Assembly: GCA_963766645.1 (NCBI GenBank) | Contig: CAVYAY010000001.1 | Location: forward strand, 531,020 to 595,019 | Direction of reading: 5' to 3' | DNA: 64,000 nt | DNA from: an uncultured Chloroflexia bacterium | GTDB taxonomy: Bacteria > Chloroflexota > Dehalococcoidia > DSTF01 > WHTK01 | In this document: piece after piece, positions 14,519 to 37,708 of the stretch | Position numbering within the stretch: the stretch's first letter is position 1 | How the letters are laid out: each line of letters starts with the position of its first letter | Translations under genes and position numbers: made by a program | The notes under the pieces: model-generated | What the model was told of the DNA's origin: nothing | Databases searched by the model: none | Seen by the model: the letters and a program-made list of their open reading frames with translations, nothing else

Positions 14519-14570
14519 GTTCAGCGCCCTCTCGTCACGTGCCCGAGTGAGGTCACGCGAGCTCCCGGTT

Positions 14571-15340: not shown

Positions 15341-15521
15341 GGAATTTCTCCTCTGCTCTTCGTCAGGTAAGACGGCAGCTACATTCCGCCAGCCTGTCGG
15401 ACTCGTCAAGGTCGCAAACAAACTGGCATGGGGACTGGCCGTACCTGCCACTCGTTCGTATAACCCGTGCGACTGTTGCGCGCTATACTCGCCCAACTCC
15501 CGAAATGGAAGAGTTCGCACC

Positions 15522-16864: not shown

Positions 16865-16865
16865 C

Positions 16866-19349: not shown

Positions 19350-19534
19350 TAAACCCCCTCCGACTGCCCCGAGGCAGCGCGGATCATAGCAGCGGCCCGA
19401 TACCCGTTCGATGGGTATAACCGCTGCTTTGGGGAGATTCTTGCCTATTCAGCGCCCCGCCACGTCCAATCCGCCCGCTCCGAATCATACCGTTTGGTTA
19501 TCGACGACCGGCTTCCGAGCTTCGAGTCCATAGA

Positions 19535-22020: not shown

Positions 22021-22042
22021 CCGGGACGAGCCTCCCGGGCCG

Positions 22043-22984
22043 TTACCCGCCTTCGCACAGAAACGGCAACAGCAGGTCGAGGAACTCCTGCGTCTTCTGG
22101 GTGTGCACGTTGTGACCTGCGCCCGCGACCGTTTCCAGCCGAGCGTTTGGCAGGCACGCGATGAATCGCTCCGCCGCGTCCGATTTGATCAGAGGGCTCT
22201 CTTCGCCGCGGATCAACAGCACAGGACAGGAAACTCCGGCAAGCTCCTCCGGGCTAATTGGTGGACGCGCCGGCAAAGGTGCCCCCGAATTCCCGAGGCG
22301 TGGATATTGCTTGCTGACCAGCTTGCCGTCGGATCGCTGCATCAGATTGAAGCGCATTGTTCGCAGAATGCGTTCCTCGCTTCGGTCTGGCTCCCGTTCC
22401 TGCACCCGCGCAACGTAATCTTCAACCGAGTCGAATTCGCGCGTCGAGCGGACAAACTCCACGATTTGCTGGCGTCCTTCGAGCGCTGACTCCGGACCCG
22501 TATCGACGAGAACGAGCCGCTTCGCGACATCATGTCTGGTGACGAGACTGAGCGCGGTGCGGCCGCCCATCGAGTGCCCTACGATGTTCGGTCGCTCCAG
22601 TCCCAATGCCCGGATCACGCCCAGCACGTCGTTGGCCATCAGCTCCGTAGACATCTCGCCGTCGCGCGGCCATTCGCTGTCGCCGTGGCCGCGCTGGTCA
22701 ACGGCAAAGATCTGAAAATCGTGACACAGCGTCGCGGCCACCATGTCCCAGACGTGGGCCGTCTGGTTACCCCCGTGCAGCATGAGCATCGCAGGCTTTG
22801 ATGCGTCTCCCCATTCAAGGAGATGGAAGCGTAATCCGCCGCTCACGACGTTTCGCGAGTAGCACGAAATCGGCAGGACGGGCTCAAGGCCGCGCTCCCG
22901 CATCGCAATCAAGACGTTCGCAAAATCCTCGCTATCGGTCATGTCCAACCGATCGGCGCTCTCTGAGAAGGTGTTCAGGTACAC
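22043..22984 (-). CDS. Alpha/beta-fold hydrolase
   Basis: HGGNQTAHVWD oxyanion region, nucleophile elbow IVGHSMGGRTAL, and C-terminal GAGHNVH. Confidence 0.75.
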   Translation of the reverse strand: MYLNTFSESADRLDMTDSEDFANVLIAMRERGLEPVLPISCYSRNVVSGGLRFHLLEWGDASKPAMLMLHGGNQTAHVWDMVAATLCHDFQIFAVDQRGHGDSEWPRDGEMSTELMANDVLGVIRALGLERPNIVGHSMGGRTALSLVTRHDVAKRLVLVDTGPESALEGRQQIVEFVRSTREFDSVEDYVARVQEREPDRSEERILRTMRFNLMQRSDGKLVSKQYPRLGNSGAPLPARPPISPEELAGVSCPVLLIRGEESPLIKSDAAERFIACLPNARLETVAGAGHNVHTQKTQEFLDLLLPFLCEGG

Positions 22985-22999
22985 GCGCTGTGCCTCTAA

Positions 23000-23878
23000 C
23001 TAGGCGGTCGAGATGGCATCAGCATAGGCGATCAGGTCTCGGGCGCGCCGGACAATCGCAGTGTCCACCATGCGGCCGTCAACCTGGATCGAGGCTTCGC
23101 CCCGCGCCTCGGCCTCAACGAACGCCGCAACGATGCGGCGCGACTCTTCGACGGCTTCAGCCTTGGGCTCGAAGACCCTGTTCACGGGTTCTACCTGAGC
23201 CGGATGGATCAGGTGCTTGCCTTTAAAGCCAATCGATTTCACGTAAGTCGTTTCGGCTACCAGTCCGGCTTCGTCCTTGAAGTCTCCGAATGGCGTGTCC
23301 AGCGGCTGAAGCCCGTATGCGACCGCGCAGTGAGCGATGATACGCCGTACGTACTCCAGCTCGCCGCCGGCGGGAGTGCGGTCCACACCCATGTCGGCGA
23401 CGTAGTCAAAGCCGCTCAGCGCTAGACCGATCGACCGCGGCGCCGCCGAGGCGATATCGCGGCAATTCAGCACTCCCATCGCCGACTCCACATGGGGCAC
23501 CAGGCCGATGCTACCGGCCGCGATCGAGGCGTTGGCTTCCAGACGACCGATCATCTCGTCCAGCCGTCCGATTTCCTCACCGGTTTTCGCCTTCGGAAAC
23601 GCGATGCCGTCTAGCCCCGGGACGATAACTGCTGTCAGGTCCCCCTCCGTAAGCCCGGTTTCAAAGTGGTTGACCCGGACGTGCACCGTTTTACCGGCTG
23701 CCTTCAGTGAAGCCACCGACGCTGCGATACCCGCGCGCGTCGCTTCCTTCTCGGCCGGCGGCACGGAATCCTCCAGGTCGAGGATGATGACGTCGGCCGG
23801 CGTTTGGTGAGCGCGAGCCACCATGTTTTCTCGATTGGCAGGGACGTAAAGCATCGAACGTAGTATCAGCATGGTCAC
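23000..23878 (-). CDS. HpcH/HpaI aldolase / citrate-lyase beta (CitE)-like CoA-ester lyase
   Basis: SMLYVPANRENMVARAHQTPADVIILDLEDSVPPAEKEATR is the CitE / malyl-CoA / citramalyl-CoA lyase N-terminal signature. Confidence 0.8.
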   Translation of the reverse strand: MTMLILRSMLYVPANRENMVARAHQTPADVIILDLEDSVPPAEKEATRAGIAASVASLKAAGKTVHVRVNHFETGLTEGDLTAVIVPGLDGIAFPKAKTGEEIGRLDEMIGRLEANASIAAGSIGLVPHVESAMGVLNCRDIASAAPRSIGLALSGFDYVADMGVDRTPAGGELEYVRRIIAHCAVAYGLQPLDTPFGDFKDEAGLVAETTYVKSIGFKGKHLIHPAQVEPVNRVFEPKAEAVEESRRIVAAFVEAEARGEASIQVDGRMVDTAIVRRARDLIAYADAISTA

Positions 23879-23879
23879 C

Positions 23880-24647
23880 CTAGCGGCCGCTCCACTGCGG
23901 CTGGCGCTTCTCGCGGAAAGCCTTGGGGCCTTCCAGCGCGTCCTCGGCTTCGAGAAGCTCGTCGTACACCTTTCGGACCATCGGCCTTACCTCTTCGGCA
24001 GGCAGCGTCAATGCTCGCTGGATGATCTCTTTGTGGGCCCTGACCGAAAGCGGAGAATTGCGGCAGATCTTCCGTGCATAATCAATCGCCGTGGGCATCA
24101 GCTCCTCCGGCGACACGACCTTGTTGGCGAAGCCGATCTCGTACGCGCGCTGAGCGCCGATCGGCTCGCCCGTCAGGCACAGCTCCATTAGCGCGCTCAG
24201 CGGTATCTGGTTCAGCAACGTGGGCGCAAAACCGGCGAGCAGGTGCCATTTCGTCTCCGTGATGCCGATCTGCGCCGTCTCCGACATGATGCGTATGTCG
24301 CAGCGCTGTGCATGTCCCCACCCGCCGCCATACGCAAACCCGTTGATCGCCGCGATCATCGGCTTGAAGCTCTCGGTCGGCACAACCCCGTTCTCCGGAG
24401 GCCTCGGGGCCTGCCCAGCGTCATCCGCCGCTGCGCGTTCCTTCAAGTCCCGCCCCACGCAGAACCCCCGGCCGGTCCCGGTAACGATGGCCACCCAGGC
24501 GCTGTCATCCGCCTTGAAACGCTCATAGCTCTCTGCCAGCGTCCGTGAAAGCTCTCGGTTCAGGGCGTTCAGCGCCTCCGGCCGGTTCAGTGTGATTACG
24601 ACAATGTGATCGTCGACTCGGTCGTAGAGAACAACAGGTTCTGCCAT
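23880..24647 (-). CDS. Enoyl-CoA hydratase/isomerase (crotonase)
   Basis: ITLNRPEALNAL...VTGTGRGFCVGRDL...AAINGFAYGGG. 255 aa. Confidence 0.85.
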   Translation of the reverse strand: MAEPVVLYDRVDDHIVVITLNRPEALNALNRELSRTLAESYERFKADDSAWVAIVTGTGRGFCVGRDLKERAAADDAGQAPRPPENGVVPTESFKPMIAAINGFAYGGGWGHAQRCDIRIMSETAQIGITETKWHLLAGFAPTLLNQIPLSALMELCLTGEPIGAQRAYEIGFANKVVSPEELMPTAIDYARKICRNSPLSVRAHKEIIQRALTLPAEEVRPMVRKVYDELLEAEDALEGPKAFREKRQPQWSGR

Positions 24648-24874
24648 GTCGGGACCCCTTTCGGGGGTTCACTCTAGCACCCGCACGCACCTGCTTCCGA
24701 AGTATTCCCGTTTGTACTGGAGCGCCTTTCAGCGGCCCACCCCAAAGGAATCTTGTAGACGCTTTCGATCGCCGGGATCGCGGACCTTCATAACCGGTGT
24801 GCACTGTCTTTGACACCCGGAATTACCGATGCTAGCTTCGCAAAGCTGTACAAGCGCTGAGCAAGGAGAATCGC

Positions 24875-25933
24875 ATGGTAACTCAGACTGCCGGAATCGA
24901 AGTTCTCAACCCGGTGGCTCAAACGGCCGCCGACGGCCAGGCGGTCCCGGCCGGCGATCTGCTGATGGCAGACCACGAGACGTTCGCGGGAGCGGACAGC
25001 TTCGACTCCTGGGAGAACTTCAACACCGAGTTCCTTGACCGCGGCTGGGGCGATGGCTTTCCCCTCGTGGCCCCGACCCGCGAGCGCGTAAATGCGTTCC
25101 TCGATTCTGTCAGGCACCTGGAGCTGGGGCCGTTGGACGTCATCGGCAAGCCCGTCGCTCCTGGCAACGGGATCGCGACGGTCGAGAAGCTCGCCATCAA
25201 CTGTGCAATGGCTGGTTGCCGTCCTGAGCACCTGACTGTCCTGATCAGCACGATTGAGGCAATCACCGAGACAGAGGATGTTGCCTTTCAGGCCGACCTC
25301 CAGTCGCCCGCCGGGCACTTCCCGATGATGCTGGTCAGTGGCCCGATAATACAGCAGATGGACATCAACTCCGGCATGTGCAGCCTGGGGCCGGGCAAAC
25401 CCTCGTTGGTCAACACCGTCCTCGGGCGCGCCCTGCGGCTCATCCTGATGAACGTTGGCCACGCATACCCGACTGCCAAGGACCTTGATACGATCGGCGT
25501 ACCGCAGAAGTTCAGTTACTGCCTCGCTGAGAACGAAGCCCAGAACCCCTGGGACGAACCCTTCCACGTTGAAATCGGTTTCCAACCCTCGGACAGCGTC
25601 ATTACCGTCTTCAGCGTCAGCGAAGTGGGCCACTTCGGCGGTTACACGGCAGAGCCGGAGCGTCTTCTCATCAGCCTTGCCAGGGGCATGCGGCACGCCG
25701 GCGGCGGTGAGCACGACGACAGCGGGCATCAGTACCTCATCATGTACTGCCCGGACCACGCGCGCAGCATGCACGTCGGCGGTGAGACCAAGGAGTCGAT
25801 CCGAAAGTTTGTTGTCGAAAACGTGCCCCTGAAGAACGGTGATAACGTGCACTTCACCGTCGTCGGCGGTCCGTCTTCCGGCAGCCACGTCTACAGGGCA
25901 TTGCCCTCCATCAGCAAGACGATTCGGCTCTAA
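24875..25933 (+). CDS. Uncharacterised 'GDGFP...AMAGC' family protein, copy P1 (no adjacent UxxC partner)
   Basis: 352 aa with AAGGAGAA upstream. Shares GWGDGFPLV, ATVEKLAINCAMAGCRPEHL, LGPGKPSLVNTVLGRALRLILMNVG and NPWDEPFHV with three paralogs in the window. I recognise no family name for it. Confidence 0.7.
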   Translation: MVTQTAGIEVLNPVAQTAADGQAVPAGDLLMADHETFAGADSFDSWENFNTEFLDRGWGDGFPLVAPTRERVNAFLDSVRHLELGPLDVIGKPVAPGNGIATVEKLAINCAMAGCRPEHLTVLISTIEAITETEDVAFQADLQSPAGHFPMMLVSGPIIQQMDINSGMCSLGPGKPSLVNTVLGRALRLILMNVGHAYPTAKDLDTIGVPQKFSYCLAENEAQNPWDEPFHVEIGFQPSDSVITVFSVSEVGHFGGYTAEPERLLISLARGMRHAGGGEHDDSGHQYLIMYCPDHARSMHVGGETKESIRKFVVENVPLKNGDNVHFTVVGGPSSGSHVYRALPSISKTIRL

Positions 25934-25990
25934 TACCGGAGGATCGCCTCCCGGCAGCAGGGCGGCGGCATCGAGATCGGGGGGTGCTGC

Positions 25991-28270
25991 GTGGCGGGTG
26001 CACTCGAAGGCATACGCGTCATCGATTTCGGCCAGTACATCGCCGGCCCGCTGGTCGCCATGCTCCTCTCCGACCAGGGCGCCGACGTCATTCGCGTCGA
26101 CCCGCCGGGTGGCCCGCGCTGGAGTCACCCAGCCAACGCCACGCTGAACCGCGGCAAGCGCCGATTAGAACTGGACCTTAGAGACCCGGCCGGCAAGACA
26201 GCCGCACTGAGTCTGATCGGCAGCGCCGACGTTGTTATCGAGAACTTCCGGCCCGGCGTCATGGAGAGTCTCGGGCTCGCCTGGGAGCAGGTGAGCCCTG
26301 ACCACGAGAGGCTCATCTACTGCTCGATTCCAGCCTTCGCCGCTGACGACCCTCGTGCCCGCTTGCCTGGCTGGGAAGGCGTCGTCGCCGCGGCGACTGG
26401 CGCTTTCCCCACTCGCCCCGGCCGCCGTCACCCGGCGAGCGCGGTCGAGCCAGAGGCAGTCGACGCGCCCCGGTTCACGGCGCTGCCGCTCGCGTCGGAG
26501 TACGGCGCGGTGGCGGCCGCGATCGGCATAGCGATGGCGTTGATCGCTCGCGAGCGCGACGGACTCGGGCAATGTCTGGAGATACCCCTCTTCAATGCGA
26601 TGTTTCTCGCCATCGGTTCCAGTGGCCTGCTGGTCAACGGCGGACCCTCGGGTGGACGCCCGATGGATCCCTGGGGCGGCATCTTCCCCGCCAAGGGCGA
26701 AGGCCGTGTGCTCATGAGCCTGCCCACGCCGCGATTCCTCGACACTTTCCTCAAGGCCACTGGCAAAGACCGCGAATGGGAAGACAAAGGCTACCTCGCG
26801 GCGGACGCCGTCAACGACAAGGATCTGATGGCGCGCCTTCAGCAAGACCTCGTCGACGTGTTCATGTCTCGCACTGCCGACGAGTGGGACGAACTGGCGA
26901 CCGAGGTAGGCGTCCCCGTAACGCCGGTGCGTCAGGCCCGCGGCTGGATGGAGGCGAAGCATACGCATGAGGCGGGGATATTCGTCTTGGTCGACGATCC
27001 GGAATTCGGGCCGATGGTCCAGCCCGGTCCGTCGATTAAACTCAACGGCACGCCGGGCGGCGTGCAGGCGCCGCGCGCGGCAACCGCCTCTCCGGGCATC
27101 GATGGCATCGACGTTACAGCCGCTATCGCCGGGCCCACAAAGGAACAACCCCTATCGGCGCCTCTCGAAGGCTTCCGGGTCATTGACACCACGTCGATCC
27201 TCGCCGGGCCCACGGCTGGCCGGACGCTCGCTGAGTTCGGCGCCGAGGTTATCAAGGTCAACAACCCTTGGGAGCAGGGGTCCGGTTATCGCTGGCAGGT
27301 CCACCGCTACCACAGCGACGTCAACCGCGGCAAGAAGTCGATCCTCATCGACCTGAAGCAGCCAGCGGGCCTCGACCTCCTCTGGCGGCTGGTCGAGAAG
27401 TCAGACGTCTACCTGCAGAACATGCGCCTCGGCGTTGCGCAGCGCCTCGGTGTTGCCTACGCGGACGTCAAAAAGCACAAGCCCGACATCGTCTACCTTT
27501 CGATCTCGGCCTTCGGCTACGGCGGGGAGTGGGAGTATCGTCCCGGCTATGAGCCCGTCGCGCAGAGCTTTTCGGGTATGCAGGCCCGCGGGCCCCAACC
27601 CTACGCCGTGAACGATTACTGCACAGGGTTGCTCGGCGCTTTCGGCGTTGGATTGGCTCTCTTTCATAGGCTACGCAGCGGTGAGGGGCAGAGCGTTGAG
27701 ACCTCGTTGGCCCACGCGTCAACCTATCTTCAGCTCCCTTACATGCAGCTCTACGCGGGCAAAAAGTGGGACGAACCCTCCGGCCCCCACGCCCGCGGCT
27801 GGAGCCCGCTACAGCGCATGTATCGCGCCAGCGACGGATGGTTCTTCTTGGGCGCGGCGTCCTCCCAGATAGACGCGCTGGCTTCGATCGCGGGGTTGGA
27901 AGCTGCGAAGCAGCCGACAGGAGACGCCCTGGCCGGCGCCCTCGAGGCCGCGTTCGCGGGGAAGACCGCGGCTGCCTGGGTCAAGTCGCTTACTGCTGCC
28001 GGGCTCGGCGCGTACCCCATCGGTATCACGGAGCCGGAGCTAATGGCCGATCCTTGGGTCGTTGACCACGGCCTCAGCGTCACCCAGACCTACAAGGACG
28101 GCTCGCGTATCACGACCATCGGCCCTCCTTGGCGCCTGTCCCGTACGCCCCCTTCCGTGCGACACCTCGTTTCGCCTCCTGGTGGCGATGCATACGAGGT
28201 TATCGCGAAAGCCGGCCTCAAGGACCGATTCGAAGAGCTTGTGCGCGAGAAAGCGGTTCTCCTCGAATAG
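25991..28270 (+). CDS. Tandem (two-domain) family III CoA-transferase
   Basis: 759 aa. Domain 1 starts LEGIRVIDFGQYIAGPLVAMLLSDQGADVIRVDPP. Domain 2 starts near residue 390 with LEGFRVIDTTSILAGPTAGRTLAEFGAEVIKVNNP. Confidence 0.8.
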   Translation: MAGALEGIRVIDFGQYIAGPLVAMLLSDQGADVIRVDPPGGPRWSHPANATLNRGKRRLELDLRDPAGKTAALSLIGSADVVIENFRPGVMESLGLAWEQVSPDHERLIYCSIPAFAADDPRARLPGWEGVVAAATGAFPTRPGRRHPASAVEPEAVDAPRFTALPLASEYGAVAAAIGIAMALIARERDGLGQCLEIPLFNAMFLAIGSSGLLVNGGPSGGRPMDPWGGIFPAKGEGRVLMSLPTPRFLDTFLKATGKDREWEDKGYLAADAVNDKDLMARLQQDLVDVFMSRTADEWDELATEVGVPVTPVRQARGWMEAKHTHEAGIFVLVDDPEFGPMVQPGPSIKLNGTPGGVQAPRAATASPGIDGIDVTAAIAGPTKEQPLSAPLEGFRVIDTTSILAGPTAGRTLAEFGAEVIKVNNPWEQGSGYRWQVHRYHSDVNRGKKSILIDLKQPAGLDLLWRLVEKSDVYLQNMRLGVAQRLGVAYADVKKHKPDIVYLSISAFGYGGEWEYRPGYEPVAQSFSGMQARGPQPYAVNDYCTGLLGAFGVGLALFHRLRSGEGQSVETSLAHASTYLQLPYMQLYAGKKWDEPSGPHARGWSPLQRMYRASDGWFFLGAASSQIDALASIAGLEAAKQPTGDALAGALEAAFAGKTAAAWVKSLTAAGLGAYPIGITEPELMADPWVVDHGLSVTQTYKDGSRITTIGPPWRLSRTPPSVRHLVSPPGGDAYEVIAKAGLKDRFEELVREKAVLLE

Positions 28271-28292: not shown

Positions 28293-29489
28293 TCAGATCG
28301 GCCGCGCGGCGTGGATGATCTCTCGCGTCACCGTCGGGTTCCCCATGCACGGCACCAGGTCGCTCTGCCCGTTCGGCCCGCCAACCACGACGATCTGCAC
28401 CTGCTCCGGGTTCTGAAACTCCGGCACGAGCTCTTCCGGGTCCATGGCCTCGAGGCGTTGCTGAAGGTCAGCTGGTAGCGCTTCCCAGCCGACTGACATC
28501 GTCGCCAGTGCCTGCTTCAGGGGCCTCCGCGCGTTTTGCAGCAGGTACTCCCTGATCGAGGTCTTGGTGTGACCCGATTCGCTGAGGACACGAGCGTGGT
28601 CGGGCGCCAGCAGCATCACCTGGCAAGACCCTCCTTCGCCCTCCGTCCGGCTCGGTATCAAGCCCGAAGGACCGCCCGATGCGGACGCCTTGCCGGCCCA
28701 GCCCAGCAATATCTTCTCCGCGTCGGCCTGGTAGTTGTTGTAATGCACCATGCTGTTCGCCCCGTACACGGTGACCGTGCTAGCGCTCCGCTCGAAACCC
28801 TTTTCGACGTGCAGCGGCTCCCAGGGGTTCTGCGCCTCGTTCTCAGCCACGCACATGCTGTACTTGGTCGGGCTGCCGATGGTGTCCATGTCGCCACTGC
28901 CGGGGTAGCAGTGGCCTACGTTCATCAGGACCAGCCGGAGCGCCCGGCCCAGGACTGTATTCACCAGCGACGGTTTGCCGGGGCCGAGGGTGCAGCGCCC
29001 GTTGTTGATACCCAGCTCCTGGACAATTGGCCCGTTGATCACCAGCATCGTCGTCGTCGGGTTCGTCGACATCGTGATGCCGCGGACGGGAAACACCTCC
29101 TGCGGTGTTTCGAGGATCGCCTCCACCGCTGCGATCAGTACCGCGAGATGCTCCGGCCGGCAGCCGGCCATGACTGCATTGACCGCGACCTTCTCCACTG
29201 TCGCGGCACCGTAAAACGGCGCCAGCTTGCCGAGGACGAGGCCGGGCGGCAAGCGCACCGCGCGCAGCGCCGCTTCAACGCGCGCGCGTGTCGGCGGGAC
29301 GAGCGGGAACCCGTCGCCAATGCCGCGCTCGTTGAAATCGCCGTTGAATCGGTCCCACGCCTCGATCAAGTCTTCGCCGTGGTAGCGCTCCCGCCGTGCG
29401 GGCAGCGGTTCCCGCCCGCGCAGGTCTGCCTCCAGCTGAGCCACCGGGTTCAGAACATCTAGCGTGGCGGTATCACTGCGGGAGCTCAT
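28293..29489 (-). CDS. 'GDGFP...AMAGC' family protein, copy P2
   Basis: GIGDGFPLVPPT, ATVEKVAVNAVMAGCRPEHLAVLIAAVEAI, LGPGKPSLVNTVLGRALRLVLMNVGHCYP, NPWEPLHV. The N-terminus has LDVLNPVAQLEAD. Confidence 0.7.
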   Translation of the reverse strand: MSSRSDTATLDVLNPVAQLEADLRGREPLPARRERYHGEDLIEAWDRFNGDFNERGIGDGFPLVPPTRARVEAALRAVRLPPGLVLGKLAPFYGAATVEKVAVNAVMAGCRPEHLAVLIAAVEAILETPQEVFPVRGITMSTNPTTTMLVINGPIVQELGINNGRCTLGPGKPSLVNTVLGRALRLVLMNVGHCYPGSGDMDTIGSPTKYSMCVAENEAQNPWEPLHVEKGFERSASTVTVYGANSMVHYNNYQADAEKILLGWAGKASASGGPSGLIPSRTEGEGGSCQVMLLAPDHARVLSESGHTKTSIREYLLQNARRPLKQALATMSVGWEALPADLQQRLEAMDPEELVPEFQNPEQVQIVVVGGPNGQSDLVPCMGNPTVTREIIHAARPI

Positions 29490-29523: not shown

Positions 29524-30027
29524 TCAGGACTCCCGGATCAGGCAAGCGATAATCGAATCGAGAGCCGCCTCGGCTGCCTCTTCCACTTGGCTGTCCGACA
29601 GGGTTGCCAGCAACCTTCGCAACTCCACGAACTCGTAGTTCTGCAGGCCCATCACCCGCGCCATAGAGCGTACGATGTTCGCATAGGCCCGGTTGCATAT
29701 TGTCACGCCCGGCTTGCCGTCCCGTTCGGCGGCATACATGTCGTGCAAACTGCACGACGCGCACGGCGCTCAATCGCCAATCGCAGTGATGAAGACGTCC
29801 GCACGGGGGATGAAGCCCTCAAGCAGCTTGCTGTCGGCCGGCCAGGTTGGCTCGAGCTTGCTTGCCCAGACTACATCCCGCAGGTTGAACCGCGCCCGGA
29901 GGAGCTCAACGACCTTCTCCAGAAAGACCTTGCTCCCATGCTTGTTATTGTCGAGTACGCCTAGCACGAGCCCGTCCAGGCTGACGGGACGTTCCGCGGC
30001 CAGTGTCTCGCCAGAGTCCCTCGACAA
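29524..30027 (-). CDS. Putative small selenoprotein, UxxCxxC variant (U-A-P-C-A-S-C) of the UGSC-type family (U3)
   Basis: ORF 29770..30027 ends ...FITAIGD-TGA (29772..29770). The same frame stays open for 81 more codons: APCASCSLHDMYAAERDGKPGVTICN...ACLIRES (ORF 29524..29748 is its tail). It is collinear with the other two UxxC genes. Confidence 0.65.
29740..29758 (-). promoter_or_regulatory. SECIS-like hairpin, 11 nt after the TGA
   Basis: mRNA GUCGUGC-AGUUU-GCACGAC: perfect 7-bp stem with a 5-nt loop. Confidence 0.55.
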
Positions 30028-30037
30028 AGCTATTTCC

Positions 30038-30283
30038 CTACCTGGCCGGGACGATCTCGACTTCCCTCACGTACGGCGCCTGCGCCTTGCACATCGCCTC
30101 GGCCATCTCCTTGAACGCGTCTGGCTCCATGATGCACTCGGGGCATTCCGCGTTCGTGCCCTCGTAATAACGGACGCGTAGCACGCCGGCTTCAACGTTC
30201 ATGGGCTCGACGATTACGCCCTCGTTGTCCTCCAGGGATGACCTCAGCGTGTTCAGAATGAGCTCGATTTTCTCGTCGATCAT
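30038..30283 (-). CDS. NifU/Nfu C-terminal-domain-like small protein with a CPEC motif
   Basis: 81 aa. IELILNTLRSSLEDNEGVIVEPMNVEAGVLRVRYYEGTNAECPECIM matches the Nfu pattern (dGG..elv....g.v.v...G.C..C). Confidence 0.6.
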   Translation of the reverse strand: MIDEKIELILNTLRSSLEDNEGVIVEPMNVEAGVLRVRYYEGTNAECPECIMEPDAFKEMAEAMCKAQAPYVREVEIVPAR

Positions 30284-30320: not shown

Positions 30321-32033
30321 TCAGGTTTCGATAACCTTGCTGATCGAGGCTGGCCCTGTAATGAACTCGCTCACACCGTGGTCGCCGCCAATTACGGCGA
30401 TGTGGATATGACTCGGGTTCGGGTCGCCCCGGATTGGTGTCTCCGGGTCCATGGCTGCGATACGGTCCTTGACCTCCTGCGGCACAGCTTCCCAACCGAT
30501 GAAAGCATACGTTGCGAGGAATTCACGAAGCGGTGTCGCGGGCGCGTTTTGCACCATGTACGCCTGCAGATCGGCTTTGCTGTAGCCGGCCGCGACCAGG
30601 CTGCGAGCGTGTTCCGGCCCCAGGATCAGGAGCTGCCCGCCACGGTCGGCATCACCCTCTGTGCGGCTAGGTATGCCCAACGCTCCGCCACCACCCGCGC
30701 CAGAGCCACCGCCACCCGCCGCACCACGGGCGGCCAGTACCTTGAGCAACGGGCCGACGTCGCCGGGGTCGCTGGCAAACGACGAGACGTCGCCTGCGGC
30801 AAACATCGTTACCACGCTTTGGTCCGCGTCAAAGCCCCGGCTGACGTGGAAAGGCTCACCCCAGGGGTTGGCGTCCTCATTCTCGGCGAGAACGGCGCTG
30901 TACTTGCCGGAAGTCCCAATCGTATCGAGGTCCAGAATCTCCGGATACGCCTGCGCCACGTTCATGATGATCAAACGCATCGCCCGGCCGATTACCGTGT
31001 TGACGCGGCCCGGCTTGCCAGGGCCCCACGCGTTCATTCCTGTGTGCAGTCCAAGCTGCTTCACAATCGGTCCGTTCAGCAGCATCAGCGGATAGCCCGC
31101 GCCGTGAGAAGACAGCAGGATCCGCAACGGAAACTGGCCGATCGGTGACTCCAGCATCGCCTGTATCGCGGCGATCAAGACCGGCATGTGAGCTGGCTCG
31201 CAGCCGGCCATCGCAGCGTTGATCGCGATCTTTTCGATGGTCGCCATGCCGTCGCCGGGCGGGAAGGGGCGTCCCACCACGTCCAGCGGCTGCCAGCGGT
31301 TGCTCACGTAGTCGAGGAACGGTTTTACACGTTCGGGAGTCGGTGGGAACAGCGGGAAACCATCGCCCCAACCTCGCTCCATAAACGCCTCGTTGAACGC
31401 CTCCCATGCGTTGAGCCGGCTGGAGGACCCAAAGGATTCCGTGGCCGCCCGCTGCAGTTCACGCACGACAGCTCCCGAAACGTCCGCCGGTGGCGTCACG
31501 AGCGCCTCCAGCACCTCGGGCAGCGATGCGTCCGCATCCCCGCTGGCCTGGGGCTCTGTCCGGCTTGTCAGGGTGTACGGGATCACGACTTGCACCAGGG
31601 AGGGGAAACCGAACACCTTTGACGATGCGGCAAAATCTGCTTCATAGCCGACCGACGTGATGGAGACCGTGGGGATCCCGAGCTTCTCAAGCTCTGTCAT
31701 GTCATACGCAAGGTACGACGTGCAGGACCCTCAATCGGCTGTCGCGCCGACCACGATGTCGCAGTGATCAGCCTCGATTGCCTCCAGCACCGATTTCTGG
31801 ATCGGACGCCTGCTGTCGTAGTGGAAGGTTTCCATACTTGGAAACTGCTGCTTCAGCCGAGTCTCAACCTGGTTCAGGTAGTGGATGCCACCGGGTTTGC
31901 GGTTCCAGTAGAAGCCGACCCGCTTACCTTCCAATGACCTGGGTCGAGTCGGCATCACAAGCGCCTCACCCAGGTCTGCAGCCAGCTGCGAAACCGGGTT
32001 CAGTACCTCAAATGCATCAGTCTCGGTAACCAT
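30321..32033 (-). CDS. Putative selenoprotein: UGSC-type domain fused to a 'GDGFP...AMAGC' domain (U2-P3), 570 aa if TGA is read as Sec
   Basis: ORF 31731..32033 ends ...DIVVGATAD-TGA (31733..31731). The same frame continues GSCTSYLAYDMTELEKLGIPTVSITSVGYE... into ORF 30321..31700, which carries GWGDGFPLFPPT, NAAMAGCEPAHMPVLIAAIQAM, WGPGKPGRVNTVIGRAMRLIIMNVAQAYP and NPWGEPFHV. Confidence 0.7.
31701..31719 (-). promoter_or_regulatory. SECIS-like hairpin, 11 nt after the TGA
   Basis: mRNA GUCGUAC-CUUGC-GUAUGAC: 7-bp stem (one G.U pair) with a 5-nt loop. Same spacing and geometry as the hairpin at 29740..29758. Confidence 0.55.
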
Positions 32034-33183: not shown

Positions 33184-34128
33184 TTAGGAGTTCCTCTCGC
33201 CGCGATTCTTGAGATAACGGTAAGCGGCGACCGCCGCCGTTGCCCCGTCGCCGGCGACGGCAGCTAGCTGAGCCACCGAATTCTGGCGGATGTCGCCCGC
33301 TGCGAAGACCCCAGGCGCCGACGTCTGCATCATGATGTCGGTCACTATGTGGCCACTCGGGTCGAGATCGACAGCTCCCTGGAGGAACGTCGTATTCGGG
33401 TCAAGGCCCACGAAGATAAATACGCCGGCAAACTCCTGGGTCTCGCTCTTCCCGGTAGCGAGATCCACTAACCGGACGCCCGTCACAGCGTCGCTGCCGA
33501 TGATTTCTTCGACCTGGCGCCCATAGGCCACCTTCAGGTTTGGTTTTGCCTCGGCCTTCTCGACAATGGCCCGCTGCAATCGCAGCTCCGCGCCGCGGTG
33601 AAACAGCGTCACGTCAGACGCGAATTCGGTCAGCACGACGGCTTCGTCCACCGCCGCGTCGCCGCCGCCGACTACGCAGACCGACTGCCCGGAAAAGAAG
33701 GGACCATCGCAGGACGCGCAATGCGAGACGCCTTTCCCCACCAACTCCTCTTCGCCCGGCACGCCGAGGCTACGCAGCGTCGAACCCGAAGCGATGACCA
33801 GCGTCCGCCCGGTCACCTCGCTCTCATCGCACCTTACGAGCTTCTCATCGCCGCCAGTGTCGATCGAGAGGGCCGAATCAAAAACAAACTCGGCGCCCGC
33901 CATCTGGGCCTGCTCTTGCAGCATCGGCCCGAGTTCATACCCCGGGACGCCTTCTGGGAACCCCGGGAAGTTCTCAACTTTGTCGACGTTGATGATCTGA
34001 CCGCCCGAAGTGCCCCTGTCGATCACGGCGACACTTAGCCCGAAGCGGCTGGCCGTCAAAGCGGCCGTCAGTCCGGCGACGCCTGCGCCAATAACCAGCA
34101 AATCGTAGTCACTCATGTCCGTTCCCAC
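33184..34128 (-). CDS. trxB: Thioredoxin-disulfide reductase
   Basis: YDLLVIGAGVAGLTAALTASRFG (FAD GxGxxG), redox-active VSHCASCDGPFF, second dinucleotide site VVGGGDAAVDEA, C-terminal FAAGDI. Confidence 0.85.
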   Translation of the reverse strand: MGTDMSDYDLLVIGAGVAGLTAALTASRFGLSVAVIDRGTSGGQIINVDKVENFPGFPEGVPGYELGPMLQEQAQMAGAEFVFDSALSIDTGGDEKLVRCDESEVTGRTLVIASGSTLRSLGVPGEEELVGKGVSHCASCDGPFFSGQSVCVVGGGDAAVDEAVVLTEFASDVTLFHRGAELRLQRAIVEKAEAKPNLKVAYGRQVEEIIGSDAVTGVRLVDLATGKSETQEFAGVFIFVGLDPNTTFLQGAVDLDPSGHIVTDIMMQTSAPGVFAAGDIRQNSVAQLAAVAGDGATAAVAAYRYLKNRGERNS

Positions 34129-34164
34129 CGCTCACTTCCCAGTACATCAGATAGCCCGCCCTGA

Positions 34165-35881
34165 TTAGCCGCCCGAGCGCACCAGTTCGGGCCCAAGCTC
34201 TCGCACGTCCTGAATTGGGCCGGAGCTGTAGTCGCCAAGCCGAAGCTGCACCGACGCTTGCTGATCTCCGAAAGCCTCATGGCGAAGAACGACATTGCTC
34301 AGACCGCATTGCGATACCGCCGCCCGCGCTAACGAAAGCATCTGTGCATCGCCCGGGGCTCCCTTTAGCGTGGCGATGCAAGGTGGCGACAAGAAGCGCG
34401 CCAGCGCGCCACCGAAGCCTGCCGCCATGGCGCCGTACTCGCGGTGAAACTCGTCGAACGGCCAGAGAGCCCCAGTAGGCCCCTTCTCGGTAGACGGACT
34501 CGCCGGTGAGGTCCGCCAACCGTGTTAGGAACGCAGCCGCTTGAGCGTTCTGAGCCGGGAGCGTCAACGGACGACCCAACCCTCCCGGGCCTGTTGCGCT
34601 GATATCGGAGTAGCCTCCGGCCGGATTGCGGTGCTCCGAGACAACGTAGACCGCCAGGTCCAGGGCCCGCTGCAGTTGCGTCACATCGCCCAGCAGGGCA
34701 TACGCGTCCAGCATCGCCGACCCGGCTGCGACAGCATCTAGCAACAAACCGTAAATCAAAGGTTCGCCATCCCAGTAGTGAGACAGGCCGCCATCCTGCT
34801 GGTGAAGCGTGACCCAGAGCCACTCAAGGACTGTTACCGCGCGGTCTCGGCAGTCCTCTCGGCCCAGGATTAGCCATGCCTGCATGTATGCAGATGCGGC
34901 GCGGGCGTTCTGGTCGGCGTAGACGCAATCGTCGAGGTACGAGTCCAGCGGGCCGTCCACACCTTCCGGACCCGCAACGCGTCGGATGTAGTCCTGGCAG
35001 CCGAGGAACACGCCCTTGTCAGCGTCCAGTAGCGTCCCGTCCATGTCGTCGATCAGCTCCTCCGCGCAACCGCGGTAGAAGTCATCACCGGTCAATAAAA
35101 AGGTATGTAGGAAGTTGCGGAGCATCCCGGCCTGGTCGTCGAGCAGCTTCTCCGGGTGCGGCTCCTCCCAGTCCAGGCGAGACGAGTAGCGATAGTAGCC
35201 TCCTCCGCCTTCAGAGTGATACATGCTGCTGGAACGCATTTTCTCTAGCGTCAGCTGTACATGGGTTAGAAATAATCCCTCTCCGGTCACCTCGTACAGG
35301 TATAGGAAAAGGTCGTTCGCTTCGCTATGCGGGAACTTCGATTCGAGGCCGTATCCACCGTGTACTGGGTCGGCGAGGCCCTGCACCATGCCTGCGATCT
35401 CGCCCACGAGCGAGACGTTGAGACCCGCCCGGTTAGGGGTAGCCACGGGCCGGTCTGTCTGGGTTGCCCGTACCCGTTCGATTAGCTCTTCCTTCTTCTC
35501 GTGGTACGTGTTGGCGGCCTGCGCCAGGATGTCAACCATCGGCTTGGGACCGAGCGAGTTGAGCGTGAACATGTGGTCACCACCGGGTGTAAGAATCGCC
35601 AGGGTCGGCCAGCCGTTTTGCGTGTAGCGCGCGTCTATGTCCGGCCGGCGCGCTTCCTCCACGCGGATTGGCAGGAAGTTCGCGTTCAGCGATGCAATGA
35701 CCTCGTCGTCGGAGAACGTAACCTCGTCCATGCGCTGGCAGGCGCCACACCAGAAGGCCACAATCTCAAGGAAGACGGGCTTGTCCAGCTGTTTCGCTTC
35801 TGCGAAAGCGGCGTCGCCCCACGGCCGCCATTCGATCAGGTGAGCCTTGTTCGGCCGCGCCGAGAAGCGGAACTCCCTCAT
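34165..35881 (-). pseudogene. Thioredoxin-domain (DUF255 / YyaL-like) protein with a CGAC motif; one frameshift near 34459-34461
   Basis: N-terminus FLEIVAFWCGACQRMDEVTFSDDEVIASLNANFLPIRVEEARRPDIDARY. The body is like the six-hairpin-glycosidase-type domain of YyaL. The C-terminus continues in ORF 34165..34428 (FDEFHREYGAMAAGFGGALARFLSPP...). The span is 1717 nt. Confidence 0.65.
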
Positions 35882-35945: not shown

Positions 35946-37064
35946 CTAGTCCCATTCCCAGTTGATCTTCTTGGTGACCATGCCGCCGCCGTCGCGCTTG
36001 GAGTGGTTGCCGCCCGTGAACAGGTAGCTCACATGGCCGCCGCCCCATCCACCACTCACCATGACCTGCATGTGTGACGGGTCGGTGATGTGATAGACCT
36101 TGGCCTCGCCGTCATTGAGGTCGACGCGATTAGCCCAGTGGTTCGCCGCTGTGTGGGTTTCCTGCGGCACCCCCGGAGACTGCAAATCGTGCTGCGCCTG
36201 CTTGTCTTTGACCAAGTGATACGTGTTCTCCCACACCGTGTCGCGGAAGCGTTCCTTGCTCCAGCCGGCGTCGGCAAGCATCTTCGCCGCATCCGGATTA
36301 AGTGCTATGACCGTGCAGGCGCCGCTGCGTAACTGTGCGATCCGGCGGCCCATATCGGCCACATTGCGCTCCAGGTCGGCGCCCGTCCTGACGAAGCCCG
36401 TACCCAGATACGTGCCGTGAGCGTCGAGCACCGTGACCGCACTGTCTTCAGCCTTCAGTCCAGCCGCGCTGACGTGGAAGGGCTCCCACGGGTTTCCGTC
36501 GTCGGTAGGCCGCTCGCAGATCAGATGGCCCCAACGGTCGGCCTGAGCGAAGACACACTTCGCCAGTTCCCCTGGCTTCGTCAGCCCGACATTCCACTGG
36601 ATCAGCCGTATCGCCCTCGCGATCGTGCCATTCGCACGGTTGCCGGAACCCGCCAGCGCGCCTTCGGCATAGTGGAAGCCGAGCTTCTTCACCACGGGTC
36701 CGCTGATGATTGCGAGCGGCGGACCCCCCACCGTACTGACTGAATTCAGGATGTGGTAGTCGTCATCCAGGATCGCCTCCATGGCGGTAATCACCACTGG
36801 CACGTACTCCGGCCGGCAGCCTGCCATCGCGCAGTTGATAGCGATCGCCTCCATCGTGACCTCGCCCTCACCAGGCATGAGGACACCGAGACTCTCGTCC
36901 GCCGGGCGACCGATGTAGTCGAGAATCTGCCGCACCCGCCGCTCGGTGGGCACGAAGACCGGGAAGCCATCCGTCCAGCCCTGTTCGAAGACGAAGTCGG
37001 TGAAATCGTCGATGTCTTCGATGCTGAACTTCTTCGCCGCCAGCTTGAAATCTTCCGCAACCAT
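35946..37064 (-). CDS. 'GDGFP...AMAGC' family protein, copy P4 (most divergent)
   Basis: GWTDGFPVFVPT, EAIAINCAMAGCRPEYVPVVITAMEAI, GNRANGTIARAIRLIQWNVG, NPWEPFHV. Start trimmed to ATG 37064, 2 nt after the TAA of the upstream UGSC gene. Confidence 0.7.
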   Translation of the reverse strand: MVAEDFKLAAKKFSIEDIDDFTDFVFEQGWTDGFPVFVPTERRVRQILDYIGRPADESLGVLMPGEGEVTMEAIAINCAMAGCRPEYVPVVITAMEAILDDDYHILNSVSTVGGPPLAIISGPVVKKLGFHYAEGALAGSGNRANGTIARAIRLIQWNVGLTKPGELAKCVFAQADRWGHLICERPTDDGNPWEPFHVSAAGLKAEDSAVTVLDAHGTYLGTGFVRTGADLERNVADMGRRIAQLRSGACTVIALNPDAAKMLADAGWSKERFRDTVWENTYHLVKDKQAQHDLQSPGVPQETHTAANHWANRVDLNDGEAKVYHITDPSHMQVMVSGGWGGGHVSYLFTGGNHSKRDGGGMVTKKINWEWD

Positions 37065-37066
37065 CG

Positions 37067-37708
37067 TTATTCCCCTGTTTCCTGCGAGGACGATTCCCGG
37101 CCGCGGCGCGGTTGCGAGCCCCGCTGACTCTCCTGCGGCTGCCACTTCTGAGCCGTCAGCATGTCTTTCAGCTTCATCGCCTGCTCGTGTGCCTTGAGCA
37201 CGACTTCCTCGTGTGACTCCGCGGACGGCTTGTCCGCCGGGTACGCGATCACGACATTGCTAGAGTCTTCGATGCCCAGCAACTTCAACTCCGTCCGAGC
37301 AAGCCTTTCGAAGTGCTCGTGGACCATAACCACGGAGGGGATACCTTCTTTTAGCATGTTTGCCGCGTCACGCACGGCTGCAGTACTGCAGGATCCTCAA
37401 GCCCCGACGCCGGTGATCGCATAGTCGATCTTCGGCGCCATCTCCTGGATATCTGAGATGGGGGATGGTATCCACGTGTTGCCGTGGAACTTACCGTCGC
37501 CCATGTCGTGTTTGTAGTGACGTTGGATGTCGCGGGGCTCGTAGAGCTCGGTCACCGCGTTTTCCATCTCCGGCCAGAACTTCGTCGAGATATCGTGCAT
37601 GCCCCAGAGGAACCCGACACGCTGGCCCTCAACTGTCTCAATCGTCTTCAACGGCTTCCGCTGCGTCGCTGCCGTTGAGCCTTCGGGAGAAAGGAACTCA
37701 ATGCTCAT
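37067..37708 (-). CDS. Putative UGSC-type selenoprotein (U1), 213 aa if TGA is read as Sec
   Basis: ORF 37397..37708 ends ...DYAITGVGA-TGA (37399..37397). The same frame continues GSCSTAAVRDAANMLKEGIPSVVMVHEHF... into ORF 37067..37375. Confidence 0.7.
37362..37378 (-). promoter_or_regulatory. SECIS-like hairpin, 18 nt after the TGA
   Basis: mRNA GCCGUG-CGUGA-CGCGGC: 6-bp stem (one G.U pair) with a 5-nt loop. An alternative smaller hairpin, CUGCA-GUAC-UGCAG, lies 5 nt after the TGA. Confidence 0.4.

What the first reader, a model, noticed from the sequence alone, without database searches (positions are those of the whole stretch)
29524..30027. Third UxxC gene is a U-A-P-C-A-S-C variant with the same SECIS geometry
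...FITAIGD-TGA-APCASCSLHDMYAAERDGKPGV... aligns without gaps to UGSCTSYLAYD and UGSCSTAAVRD, with U, C+3 and D+10 conserved. A perfect 7-bp/5-nt hairpin (GUCGUGC-AGUUU-GCACGAC) begins 11 nt after the UGA, exactly as in the fusion gene. An extra Cys gives UxxCxxC. TGA sits at the homologous codon in three diverged paralogs, each with its own hairpin. That is hard to explain by chance or by sequencing error.
Basis: seen in the sequence. Interest (0 to 1): 0.7.

Follow-up and report, generated by a model that had tools for sequence, protein, structure and literature searches.

The report
UGSC-family selenoprotein gene, UAPC variant
This is a real but ordinary selenoprotein gene of the already described "UGSC" family, with its recoding hairpin in the standard place. 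Its only unusual features are a rare U-A-P-C active-site motif and a damaged copy of the required SelB factor gene nearby.

Summary
A minus-strand gene (30027..29524) has an in-frame TGA at 29772..29770. A perfect 7-bp/5-nt hairpin (29758..29740) starts 11 nt after it.

The read-through protein matches Pfam PF24696, "UGSC family", in one stretch across the TGA (115 bits). This selenoprotein family has been described since the 2000s and has its own NCBIfam model, NF041046.

In 78 UGSC genes from other genomes the same hairpin sits in the same codon register:
- One stem pair covaries (G-C in 53 genes, C-G in 23).
- Synonymous codon choice is extreme: Ser+5 is TCG in 56/59, and Ser+7 is AGT in 53/53 against 7.6% background.

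A covariance model trained without this genome finds only genes B and A in the 64-kb window.

The new points are small. The U-A-P-C dipeptide is seen only here and in one other lineage; Gly after U is invariant in the other 74 sequences. Public gene calls truncate the gene at the TGA.

- The extra Cys (UxxCxxC) is common in the family.
- Paralog C has a different, weaker hairpin.

One caveat: the only selB in the window lacks domains II/III and is frame-shifted, so present-day decoding in this organism is unproven.

The parts
29524..30027 (-). Gene A: stand-alone UGSC-family (seleno)protein, 167 codons including the in-frame TGA. The TTG start at 30027 lies 10 nt after the stop of the upstream ORF. 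Its own stop codon is TGA (29526..29524).
   Evidence: Translation. Pfam PF24696 115.4 bits, one stretch covering residues 6-163. NCBIfam NF041046 101.2 bits against a cutoff of 125.
29770..29772 (-). In-frame UGA, the predicted selenocysteine codon (U of U-A-P-C).
   Evidence: Aligns with the TGA of 85+ UGSC domains and with Cys of Cys-homologs. The same TGA is present in a separately built Logan assembly, L003, and in the ortholog L001/L002/L084.
29740..29758 (-). bSECIS upper hairpin: 7-bp stem (8 bp with the A-U closing pair), loop A22-G23-U24-U25-U26, starting 11 nt after the UGA.
   Evidence: -10.9 kcal/mol, z -4.3. Family covariation. The leave-out covariance model hits 29772..29725 at 26.3 bits, E 4e-6.
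28293..29489 (-). Partner A: 398-aa protein of the uncharacterised ~400-aa domain that is fused or adjacent to UGSC domains. It carries invariant GDGFP..PPT and MAGC motifs.
   Evidence: No Pfam or NCBIfam hit. More than 5315 relatives, many carrying PF24696. Alignment A2. Fused in 36 and separate in 54 UGSC cases in the fetched loci.
30321..32033 (-). Gene B: UGSC-partner fusion. UGA at 31733..31731 (UGSC); hairpin at 31719..31701 in the same register as gene A.
   Evidence: Covariance model hit at 49.1 bits, E 8e-13. Hairpin -6.3 kcal/mol, z -3.6.
37067..37708 (-). Gene C: stand-alone UGSC paralog. UGA at 37399..37397 (UGSC). Candidate hairpin at 37378..37362: 6 bp, loop CGUGA, 18 nt after the UGA.
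   Evidence: The hairpin lies within shuffled background. The covariance model matches only the first 13 nt.
35946..37145 (-). Partner C: a paralog of the partner domain directly after gene C. The likely real start is the ATG at 37064, just after gene C's stop.

Best explanation
Gene A (30027..29524, minus strand) encodes a ~167-residue selenoprotein of the known UGSC family. Its active-site motif is U-A-P-C instead of U-G-[SAGT]-C.

Proposed recoding mechanism (inferred, standard bacterial route):
- The UGA at 29772..29770 is read as selenocysteine rather than stop.
- The hairpin 11 nt downstream (nt 15-33) acts as a bacterial SECIS. G23 and U24 sit in its apical loop.
- The hairpin tethers SelB carrying Sec-tRNA(Sec) to the ribosome while the UGA is in the A site.

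Proposed protein function (inferred):
- In AlphaFold models of Cys homologs, Sec sits at the N-terminal end of an alpha-helix, directly after a beta-strand. The fold is flavodoxin-like beta/alpha.
- The Cys three residues later lies in the first helical turn. This is the usual arrangement of a redox-active selenenylsulfide/dithiol pair.
- The domain works with the co-transcribed 398-aa partner protein (29489..28293), which has an invariant Cys in a MAGC motif. In many genomes, and in gene B next door, this partner is fused to the UGSC domain.
- A thioredoxin-reductase-like gene nearby may supply electrons.

Shown here:
- family membership;
- the TGA at the family's U/C column;
- a conserved, covarying hairpin in a fixed register;
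- the linkage to the partner domain.

Inferred:
- actual Sec insertion in this organism;
- the redox role and the electron route;
- any effect of the A-P dipeptide on redox potential.
For: Family membership:
- PF24696 at 115 bits in one stretch across the TGA, and NF041046 'UGSC family (seleno)protein' at E 5e-29.
- The Cys homolog P0001 has ...TAIGD-C-GSC... at the same column.

Conservation of the TGA and hairpin:
- The ortholog at 47% identity keeps the TGA, UAPCASC and an identical stem. Its loop is AGUGU.
- Across 78 distinct Sec-type genes, 90.8% of stem cells are paired, against 18-52% when the 3' arm is slid.
- The covariation score is 0.230 against 0.101 +/- 0.010 in shuffles, 0/500 reaching it.
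- Pair 21-27 is G-C in 53 genes, C-G in 23 and other in 2.

Synonymous sites:
- Ser+5 is TCG in 56/59, against 22% background.
- Ser+7 is AGT in 53/53, against 7.6%.
- Leu+7 is CTT in 13/15, against 8.8%.
- Pair 21-27 is paired in 76/78 Sec genes but in 3/7 Cys homologs.

Recognition by a model that never saw this genome: a covariance model trained only on other genomes scores gene A at 26.3 bits, E 4e-6. It finds nothing else in the window except gene B.

Fit to the published bSECIS consensus (PMC13188914):
- loop of 3-9 nt;
- stem of 4-16 bp;
- G followed by U early in the loop;
- 18 nt from the UGA to the loop, within the 16-37 range;
- -10.9 kcal/mol, below the -7.5 limit.
The 11-nt spacing and G23/U24 match the E. 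coli minimal SECIS as described in PMC8659212.

Other points:
- Gene A ends in a TGA stop, so the genome uses the standard code.
- Partner linkage is shown.
- AF2 models have pLDDT 93.5 and 88.9, with the U-equivalent Cys102 just before helix 103-118.
Against: - No tRNA-Sec, selA or selD is present in the 64-kb window.
- The only selB sequence (15528..16864) lacks domains II/III and changes frame. Either Sec decoding has recently been lost, or an intact copy lies elsewhere, or the assembly is wrong there.
- NF041046 scores 101 bits, below its 125-bit cutoff. The literal G-S of the family motif is replaced by A-P.
- Part of the stem is forced by conserved residues (S-C/W...H-D). Some Cys homologs still form 6-7 of the 7 pairs.
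- The 78 sequences are related, so the shuffle statistics and Fisher p-values are nominal.
- No Rfam family matches.
- The redox function of the family has never been tested experimentally (PMC13188914).
Confidence: 0.85

Rival explanations
1. Relic selenoprotein gene. The sequence is a genuine UGSC Sec gene by descent, but this organism no longer decodes the UGA because SelB is broken. Translation would then stop after 85 residues, with the rest either unexpressed or expressed separately.
For: The selB homolog in the window aligns to a 649-aa SelB only at residues 3-158 (15528..15989, frame +3) and residues 378-632 (16091..16810, frame +2). About 220 residues, domains II/III, are missing. No other Sec-machinery gene is seen in the window.
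Against: All three UGA genes keep long open frames after the UGA, and genes A and B keep intact hairpins. The remaining selB pieces are still open and 72% identical to an intact SelB in the G domain, so any loss would be very recent. The lesion could instead be a strain variant or an assembly error. Only 64 kb of a 916-kb contig is visible, and a second selB cannot be excluded.
Confidence: 0.15
2. The hairpin is only a by-product of conserved amino acids (Ser-Cys/Trp ... His-Asp encoded by TCG TGS ... CAC GAC). It would then have no RNA function.
For: The stem arms overlap conserved residues. Cys-containing homologs still form 3-7 of the 7 pairs, and two of seven form all 7.
Against: Amino-acid conservation cannot explain the synonymous choices: TCG 56/59, AGT 53/53 and CTT 13/15 against 8-22% background. 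It also cannot explain why the third position of codon +8 tracks TGG versus TGC at codon +6 (G-C 53, C-G 23, unpaired 2). That pair is broken in 4 of 7 Cys homologs.
Confidence: 0.04
3. The TGA is a sequencing or assembly error for TGC/TGT, or a true nonsense mutation in a pseudogene.
For: Public gene calls split the gene at the TGA. The 85-aa N-terminal ORF, P0122, is the only product on record.
Against: The same TGA occurs in a separately built Logan assembly of run ERR11718635, which may share reads with the source genome. It also occurs in the 47%-identical ortholog on contigs from three other samples, and at the same column in about 85 related genes. The frame stays open and conserved for 81 codons after it.
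Confidence: 0.02
4. The UGA is read under an alternative genetic code (UGA as Trp or Gly), not as Sec.
For: None beyond the in-frame TGA itself.
Against: Gene A's own stop codon is TGA. Homologs carry Cys, not Trp or Gly, at this column. Only five in-frame TGAs with long open flanks exist in the window. Three of these are the UGSC sites; the other two lie in overlapping frames of one region.
Confidence: 0.01

Closest known systems
UGSC-containing selenoprotein family (Pfam PF24696 'UGSC family'; NCBIfam NF041046 'UGSC family (seleno)protein'; Zhang & Gladyshev, PLoS Genet 2008, PMC2398784)
   Same: The domain matches end to end. Sec is encoded by TGA at the family's active-site column, with the resolving Cys at +3 and Asp at +10. 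The hairpin is in the same register. Most members are Sec forms and few are Cys forms (255 against 21 in GOS; here about 85 against 3 in the genome loci).
   Different: The dipeptide after U is Ala-Pro. It is Gly in 74/74 other sequences at +1 and S/A/G/T/H at +2. The gene scores 101 bits, below NF041046's 125-bit cutoff, and so do paralogs B (87) and C (66). It is only 18-30% identical to the other members compared.
UGSC/Unknown_1 fusion selenoproteins (Fig. S1A of PMC2398784)
   Same: Gene B next door is such a fusion. Gene A plus partner A is the same pair split into two adjacent genes. Both arrangements are common (36 fused, 54 separate in the fetched loci).
   Different: I could not read the published figure, which is held as an image, so the identity of 'Unknown_1' with the partner domain here is assumed, not checked.
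E. coli fdhF-type minimal bacterial SECIS and the bSECIS consensus model (as summarised in PMC8659212 and PMC13188914)
   Same: The upper stem-loop begins 11 nt after the UGA. G23 and U24 sit in the apical loop. The loop has 5 nt (3 nt with the closing A-U), the stem has 7-8 bp, the UGA-to-loop distance is 18 nt, and the energy is -10.9 kcal/mol.
   Different: There is no bulged U17; the stem is continuous. A lower stem seen in gene A (45-nt fold, z -4.1) is not conserved in the ortholog (z -0.7). No Rfam model covers it.
Thioredoxin-type CxxC redox motifs (e.g. C-G-P-C)
   Same: The motif is U/C-x-x-C with the first residue at the N-terminal end of a helix that follows a beta-strand. Pro lies before the second Cys, as in thioredoxin's CGPC. 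This comparison rests on general knowledge, not on a test here.
   Different: The predicted fold is flavodoxin-like (beta-alpha repeated five times), not a thioredoxin fold. The 50 best PDB matches listed for each model are TIR, flavodoxin, RecJ DHH, B12-binding and SIS domains, and no thioredoxin-fold protein.

Membership tests
UGSC family (Pfam PF24696) | Whole-protein score above the Pfam gathering threshold (25 bits), with the match covering the domain | tested here: met
   115.4 bits, E 4e-33. Residues 6-163 match profile positions 13-170 of 172, in one stretch across the TGA position.
UGSC family (seleno)protein (NCBIfam NF041046, equivalog) | Score at or above the curated cutoff of 125 bits | tested here: not met
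   101.2 bits for gene A, 86.7 for B and 66.1 for C. NCBI's pipeline would not name any of the three from this model.
UGSC family | Sec (TGA) or Cys at the conserved active-site column, with Cys at +3 | tested here: met
   The TGA at 29772..29770 aligns with the TGA or Cys of all compared members. The TGY codon at +3 is invariant.
UGSC family | The literal U-G-S-C motif (Gly at +1, small residue at +2) | tested here: not met
   Gene A has U-A-P-C. GGN at +1 is invariant in the 74 sequences from other genomes. A-P occurs only in this gene and its ortholog on L001/L002/L084.
Bacterial SECIS (consensus model in PMC13188914) | Apical loop of 3-9 nt and upper stem of 4-16 bp | tested here: met
   7-bp stem with a 5-nt loop, or 8 bp with 3 nt.
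Bacterial SECIS (consensus model in PMC13188914) | G in the first two loop positions, followed by G or U | tested here: met
   The loop is A-G-U-U-U, and A22 with U26 can form the N1-N2 pair. The family consensus loop is A-G-U-G-U.
Bacterial SECIS (consensus model in PMC13188914) | 16-37 nt between the UGA and the apical loop; MFE at or below -7.5 kcal/mol | tested here: met
   18 nt of spacing and -10.9 kcal/mol for the hairpin alone.
Bacterial SECIS | Conservation with compensatory changes in homologous genes | tested here: met
   pair 21-27 is G-C in 53 and C-G in 23 genes, with synonymous-codon bias at stem and loop positions.
Bacterial SECIS | Binds SelB and directs Sec insertion; Sec machinery present in the genome | tested here: inconclusive
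   Binding cannot be tested here. The window holds no selA, selD or tRNA-Sec, and its selB lacks domains II/III. The rest of the genome is not visible.
Thioredoxin-fold oxidoreductases (fold suggested for UGSC proteins in PMC2398784) | Thioredoxin fold (beta-alpha-beta-alpha-beta-beta-alpha core) | tested here: not met
   AF2 models of the Cys homologs P0042 and P0001 show five beta-alpha units. The listed Foldseek matches are flavodoxin-like folds, with TM 0.4-0.5. This is a prediction on homologs, not on gene A itself.

The most novel reading that the evidence does not exclude
The U-A-P-C clade could be a functionally distinct branch of the UGSC family, with a thioredoxin-like Ala-Pro dipeptide that shifts the redox potential of the selenenylsulfide. 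It sits in a genome where three intact UGA-containing genes with conserved SECIS hairpins coexist with a gutted selB. That would mean either a snapshot of very recent loss of the Sec trait, or decoding by a non-canonical or second factor.
Probability: 0.08. Interest if true: 0.55.

Novelty: new member of a known kind. Interest (0 to 1): 0.3.

Why it matters
- Annotation: public gene calls cut this gene at the TGA into an 85-residue fragment. None of the three paralogs reaches NCBI's naming cutoff. Diverged UGSC selenoproteins like this one are therefore systematically missed.
- The family: UGSC proteins were among the most abundant selenoprotein families in aquatic metagenomes (PMC2398784). 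They still have no known function and no solved structure. A natural variant with a different dipeptide between Sec and Cys gives a small handle for redox-tuning experiments.
- Gene finding: the family-wide analysis gives a clean coding-region SECIS with covariation and extreme synonymous bias. It could serve as a specific covariance model for finding these genes.

None of this changes current understanding of selenoproteins.

Tried and rejected
- Rfam: nothing but two tRNAs at gathering thresholds over the window. An E-value scan of 29600..29900 gave only noise.
I used that job for the selB fragment instead.
- The word-indexed search with U changed to C found only one relative, P0001.
- Locus search with the four-sequence UGSC alignment was rejected as too divergent.
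- The metagenome scan for close relatives of gene A found only two contigs, both carrying the already known ortholog.
- PDB sequence searches with the UGSC and partner profiles found nothing meaningful.
- Foldseek against the PDB gave only generic flavodoxin/Rossmann-like matches and nothing for the partner domain.
- No weak Pfam link to the GrdB/PrdB family appeared at E up to 10.
- The Cys-homolog control has only seven genes and is only suggestive.
- I tried to confirm the selB deletion in another assembly, but the only other contig (951 bp) starts after the junction.
- Figure S1 of PMC2398784 is stored as an image, and the stored sequence data set is cut before the UGSC entries.
- tblastn of the 81-aa NifU-like ORF found no relatives near UGSC genes elsewhere.
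- I did not search for orthologs of paralog C, so its hairpin remains unverified.

Full report
**What is there.** On the minus strand, an ORF runs from a TTG at 30027 to a TGA stop at 29526..29524. It contains one in-frame TGA at 29772..29770. The read-through translation is ...RADVFITAIGD-U-APCASCSLHDMYAAERDGKPGV....

A scan of all six frames found only five in-frame TGA-x-x-Cys sites flanked by at least 40 open codons on both sides. The other two lie in overlapping frames of one region.

The three proteins align without gaps around the TGA, sharing U, Cys+3 and Asp+10. Overall they are only 18-26% identical to gene A.

**Which family.** With U written as C, all three match Pfam PF24696 'UGSC family' far above its threshold: 115, 99 and 95 bits against 25. 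Each match is a single stretch across the TGA.

They also hit NCBIfam NF041046 'UGSC family (seleno)protein', at 101, 87 and 66 bits. All three are below that model's strict 125-bit cutoff.

The family is not new. 'UGSC-containing protein' was one of the most abundant selenoprotein families in the Global Ocean Sampling data, with 255 Sec forms and 21 Cys forms. A 'UGSC/Unknown_1' fusion was reported there (PMC2398784). The family is listed with NF041046 in a 2026 review, which notes that the functions of these selenoproteins remain largely uncharacterised (PMC13188914).

**The hairpin in gene A.** GUCGUGC-AGUUU-GCACGAC occupies nt 15-33 counted from the U of UGA. It therefore starts 11 nt after the codon, at window 29758..29740.

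| Segment folded | Energy (kcal/mol) | z-score | Shuffles as good |
|---|---|---|---|
| Hairpin alone, 19 nt | -10.9 | -4.3 | 0/200 |
| 45 nt from the UGA | -24.4 | -4.1 | 0/200 |
| 60 nt from the UGA | -28.7 | -2.5 | 4/200 |

Perfect Watson-Crick 7-bp/5-nt hairpins begin at only 6 positions per strand in the whole window.

The fusion gene's hairpin, GUCGUAC-CUUGC-GUAUGAC, occupies the same nt 15-33 (-6.3 kcal/mol, z -3.6).

**Conservation in relatives.** The partner protein downstream of gene A (398 aa, 29489..28293) has more than 5315 relatives. Those that carry an organism name are mostly from Chloroflexota/Dehalococcoidia, and many carry part of PF24696.

A 76%-identical partner on contig L001 is preceded by an ortholog of gene A. 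The ortholog is 47% identical and keeps the TGA, U-A-P-C-A-S-C and an identical stem, with loop AGUGU. The same protein occurs on two further metagenome contigs.

A scan of representative genomes with the partner alignment returned 80 loci. A profile search of their translations found about 90 UGSC domains next to the partner or fused to it. Almost all have TGA at the active-site column. Of these, 36 are fused and 54 are separate genes.

In codon register, the DNA after the TGA has this consensus: TGA GGG TCC TGC ACG TCG TGG AGT GTC CAC GAC.

**RNA-level selection.** I tested the stem 15-21/27-33 on 78 distinct Sec-type sequences.
- 90.8% of cells are paired, against 18-52% when the 3' arm is slid by 1-3 columns.
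- The covariation score is 0.230, against 0.101 +/- 0.010 in shuffles (0/500 reach it).
- Pair 21-27 is G-C in 53 sequences, C-G in 23 and unpaired in 2.

That pair links the third base of codon +6 (TGG Trp or TGC Cys) to the synonymous third base of codon +8 (GTC/ATC or GTG/TTG). Gene A belongs to the C-G class.

Synonymous codon choice at the hairpin is extreme compared with the same genes elsewhere:

| Position | Preferred codon | Count | Background frequency |
|---|---|---|---|
| Ser +5 | TCG | 56/59 | 22% |
| Ser +7 | AGT | 53/53 | 7.6% |
| Leu +7 | CTT | 13/15 | 8.8% |

Gene A uses TCG and AGT.

In seven Cys-type homologs, pair 21-27 is formed in only 3, against 76/78 in Sec genes (nominal p 2e-4). 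Some Cys genes do keep most of the stem, because the arms overlap the conserved residues Ser-Trp/Cys and His-Asp. The sequences are related, so these p-values are nominal. The direction and size of the effects are clear all the same.

**An independent recognition test.** I built a covariance model from 74 TGA-plus-48-nt segments, none from this genome or from gene A's ortholog. I searched the whole window with filters off.
- Gene B scored 49.1 bits, E 8e-13.
- Gene A scored 26.3 bits, E 4e-6.
- Nothing else scored below E 0.1.
- Gene C matched only in the first 13 nt (E 0.16).

**Comparison with known SECIS rules.** Gene A meets every point of the published bacterial consensus (PMC13188914):
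- loop of 3-9 nt;
- stem of 4-16 bp;
- G followed by G or U early in the loop;
- 16-37 nt from the UGA to the loop (here 18 nt);
- MFE at or below -7.5 kcal/mol.

The E. coli minimal SECIS is described as an upper stem-loop 11 nt from the UGA, with G23 and U24 in the apical loop (PMC8659212). Gene A and the family consensus have G23 and U24 at the same numbered positions, which accounts for the invariant AGT codon. There is no bulged U17.

The lower stem predicted in gene A is not conserved in the ortholog (z -0.7).

**What is unusual about gene A.**
- Gly at +1 (GGN) is invariant in the 74 sequences from other genomes, and residue +2 is S, A, G, T or H. Ala-Pro is found only in gene A and its one known orthologous lineage. 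This is a rare active-site variant.
- The 'extra' Cys at +6 is not unusual. It is the TGC class, 23 of 78.
- Public gene calls hold only the 85-residue N-terminal fragment, P0122.

**Paralog C.** Its best hairpin is GCCGUG-CGUGA-CGCGGC at 37378..37362. It starts 18 nt after the UGA and is not distinguishable from shuffled sequence (z -1.8 alone, -0.3 over 60 nt). It still fits the loose consensus, but I did not test it in orthologs.

**Protein structure and likely role.** AlphaFold models of Cys-type relatives are confident:
- the fusion P0042 has pLDDT 93.5 and pTM 0.93;
- the stand-alone P0001 has pLDDT 88.9.

The UGSC domain is built of five beta-alpha units. The U-equivalent Cys102 lies directly before helix 103-118, and Cys105 lies in its first turn.

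The PDB matches are weak and are flavodoxin-like folds: TIR, flavodoxin, RecJ DHH, B12-binding and SIS domains. No thioredoxin-fold protein appears among the 50 best matches listed for either model. The 'likely Trx-like fold' guess of 2008 is therefore not supported by these models. Neither domain has a solved relative by sequence.

The partner domain has invariant GDGFP..PPT and MAGC motifs.

A TrxB-like gene (34128..33184) and a thioredoxin-domain gene (35881..34277) lie between loci B and C. A TrxB-like gene also follows the fusion on L086.

From this I infer a Sec/Cys redox domain that serves the partner enzyme, possibly fed by a thioredoxin-reductase-like protein. That is inference. The surrounding genes (many family III CoA-transferases, enoyl-CoA hydratases, an HpcH aldolase) point only vaguely to organic-acid metabolism.

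**A caveat found on the way.** The window contains a selB gene that looks broken. A 649-aa SelB, P0152, aligns as follows:
- residues 3-158 to 15528..15989 (72% identity, frame +3);
- residues 378-632 to 16091..16810 (frame +2).

Only about 100 nt lie between the two pieces, where about 220 residues (domains II and III) should be. No domain-II hallmark is found anywhere in the window.

No tRNA-Sec was found by ARAGORN or Rfam. No ORF scanned against Pfam or NCBIfam matched selA or selD.

Only 64 kb of a 916-kb contig is visible. An intact copy elsewhere, a strain variant and an assembly error all remain possible, and I could not find an independent contig spanning the junction. This lowers confidence that the UGA is decoded in this organism today. 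It does not affect the conclusion that gene A is a Sec-type UGSC gene with the family's SECIS.

**Verdict.** The thing is a new, somewhat diverged member (U-A-P-C) of a selenoprotein family already known from the literature and from curated protein-family models. Interest is modest.

Noticed in passing
window 15528..16864 (+): A selB gene that looks disrupted. The G domain (15528..15989) and the winged-helix C-terminal part (16091..16810) are present in different frames. About 220 residues (domains II/III) are missing between them. This is odd in a window carrying three UGA-containing selenoprotein genes.
   Followed up: partly
window 24875..25933 (+): A fourth paralog of the ~400-aa partner domain (352 aa, identical to P0072). 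It has no UGSC domain attached or adjacent, and it sits just upstream of a double CoA-transferase III gene.
   Followed up: partly
window 30038..30283 (-): An 81-aa ORF with a CxxC motif and a weak NifU-like match (Pfam E 0.002), wedged between fusion gene B and gene A in the same operon-like run. No relative was found near UGSC genes in the other loci.
   Followed up: partly
window 12078..28270: An unusual density of family III CoA-transferase genes: 12078..13532, 13439..14632, 16866..18134, 19535..20785, 20782..22020, and a double-domain gene at 25991..28270. Enoyl-CoA hydratases and an HpcH/HpaI aldolase are also there. CoA-transferase III genes also lie near UGSC/partner genes in 12 other loci.
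   Followed up: partly
window 33184..35881 (-): A thioredoxin-reductase-like gene (34128..33184, TIGR01292 at 319 bits) and a DUF255/thioredoxin-domain gene (35881..34277) lie between UGSC loci B and C. A TrxB-like gene also follows a UGSC fusion on L086.
   Followed up: partly
window 29489..29400 and 32033..31990; P0042 residues 11-16: A short 'VLNPV' strand is found at the N-terminus of stand-alone partner proteins. In fusions it comes before the UGSC domain. The UGSC domain therefore looks like an insertion into the partner rather than a simple N-terminal addition.
   Followed up: no
window 37362..37378 (-): Paralog C's only plausible SECIS is shifted 7 nt downstream relative to A and B. 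It is not better than shuffled sequence. Three other UGSC genes of a 'TPAVVRA' subtype (L056, L018, L004) show different candidate hairpins. Those of L056 and L018 are 7-bp stems with a 4-nt loop that start 11 nt after the UGA; L004's is less clear.
   Followed up: partly
L004, L006, L056, L074 and the hit list (contigs JACPQD01...): A single groundwater Chloroflexi genome bin carries at least 14 paralogs of the partner domain, several with UGSC domains. The family is strongly expanded in some Chloroflexota.
   Followed up: no
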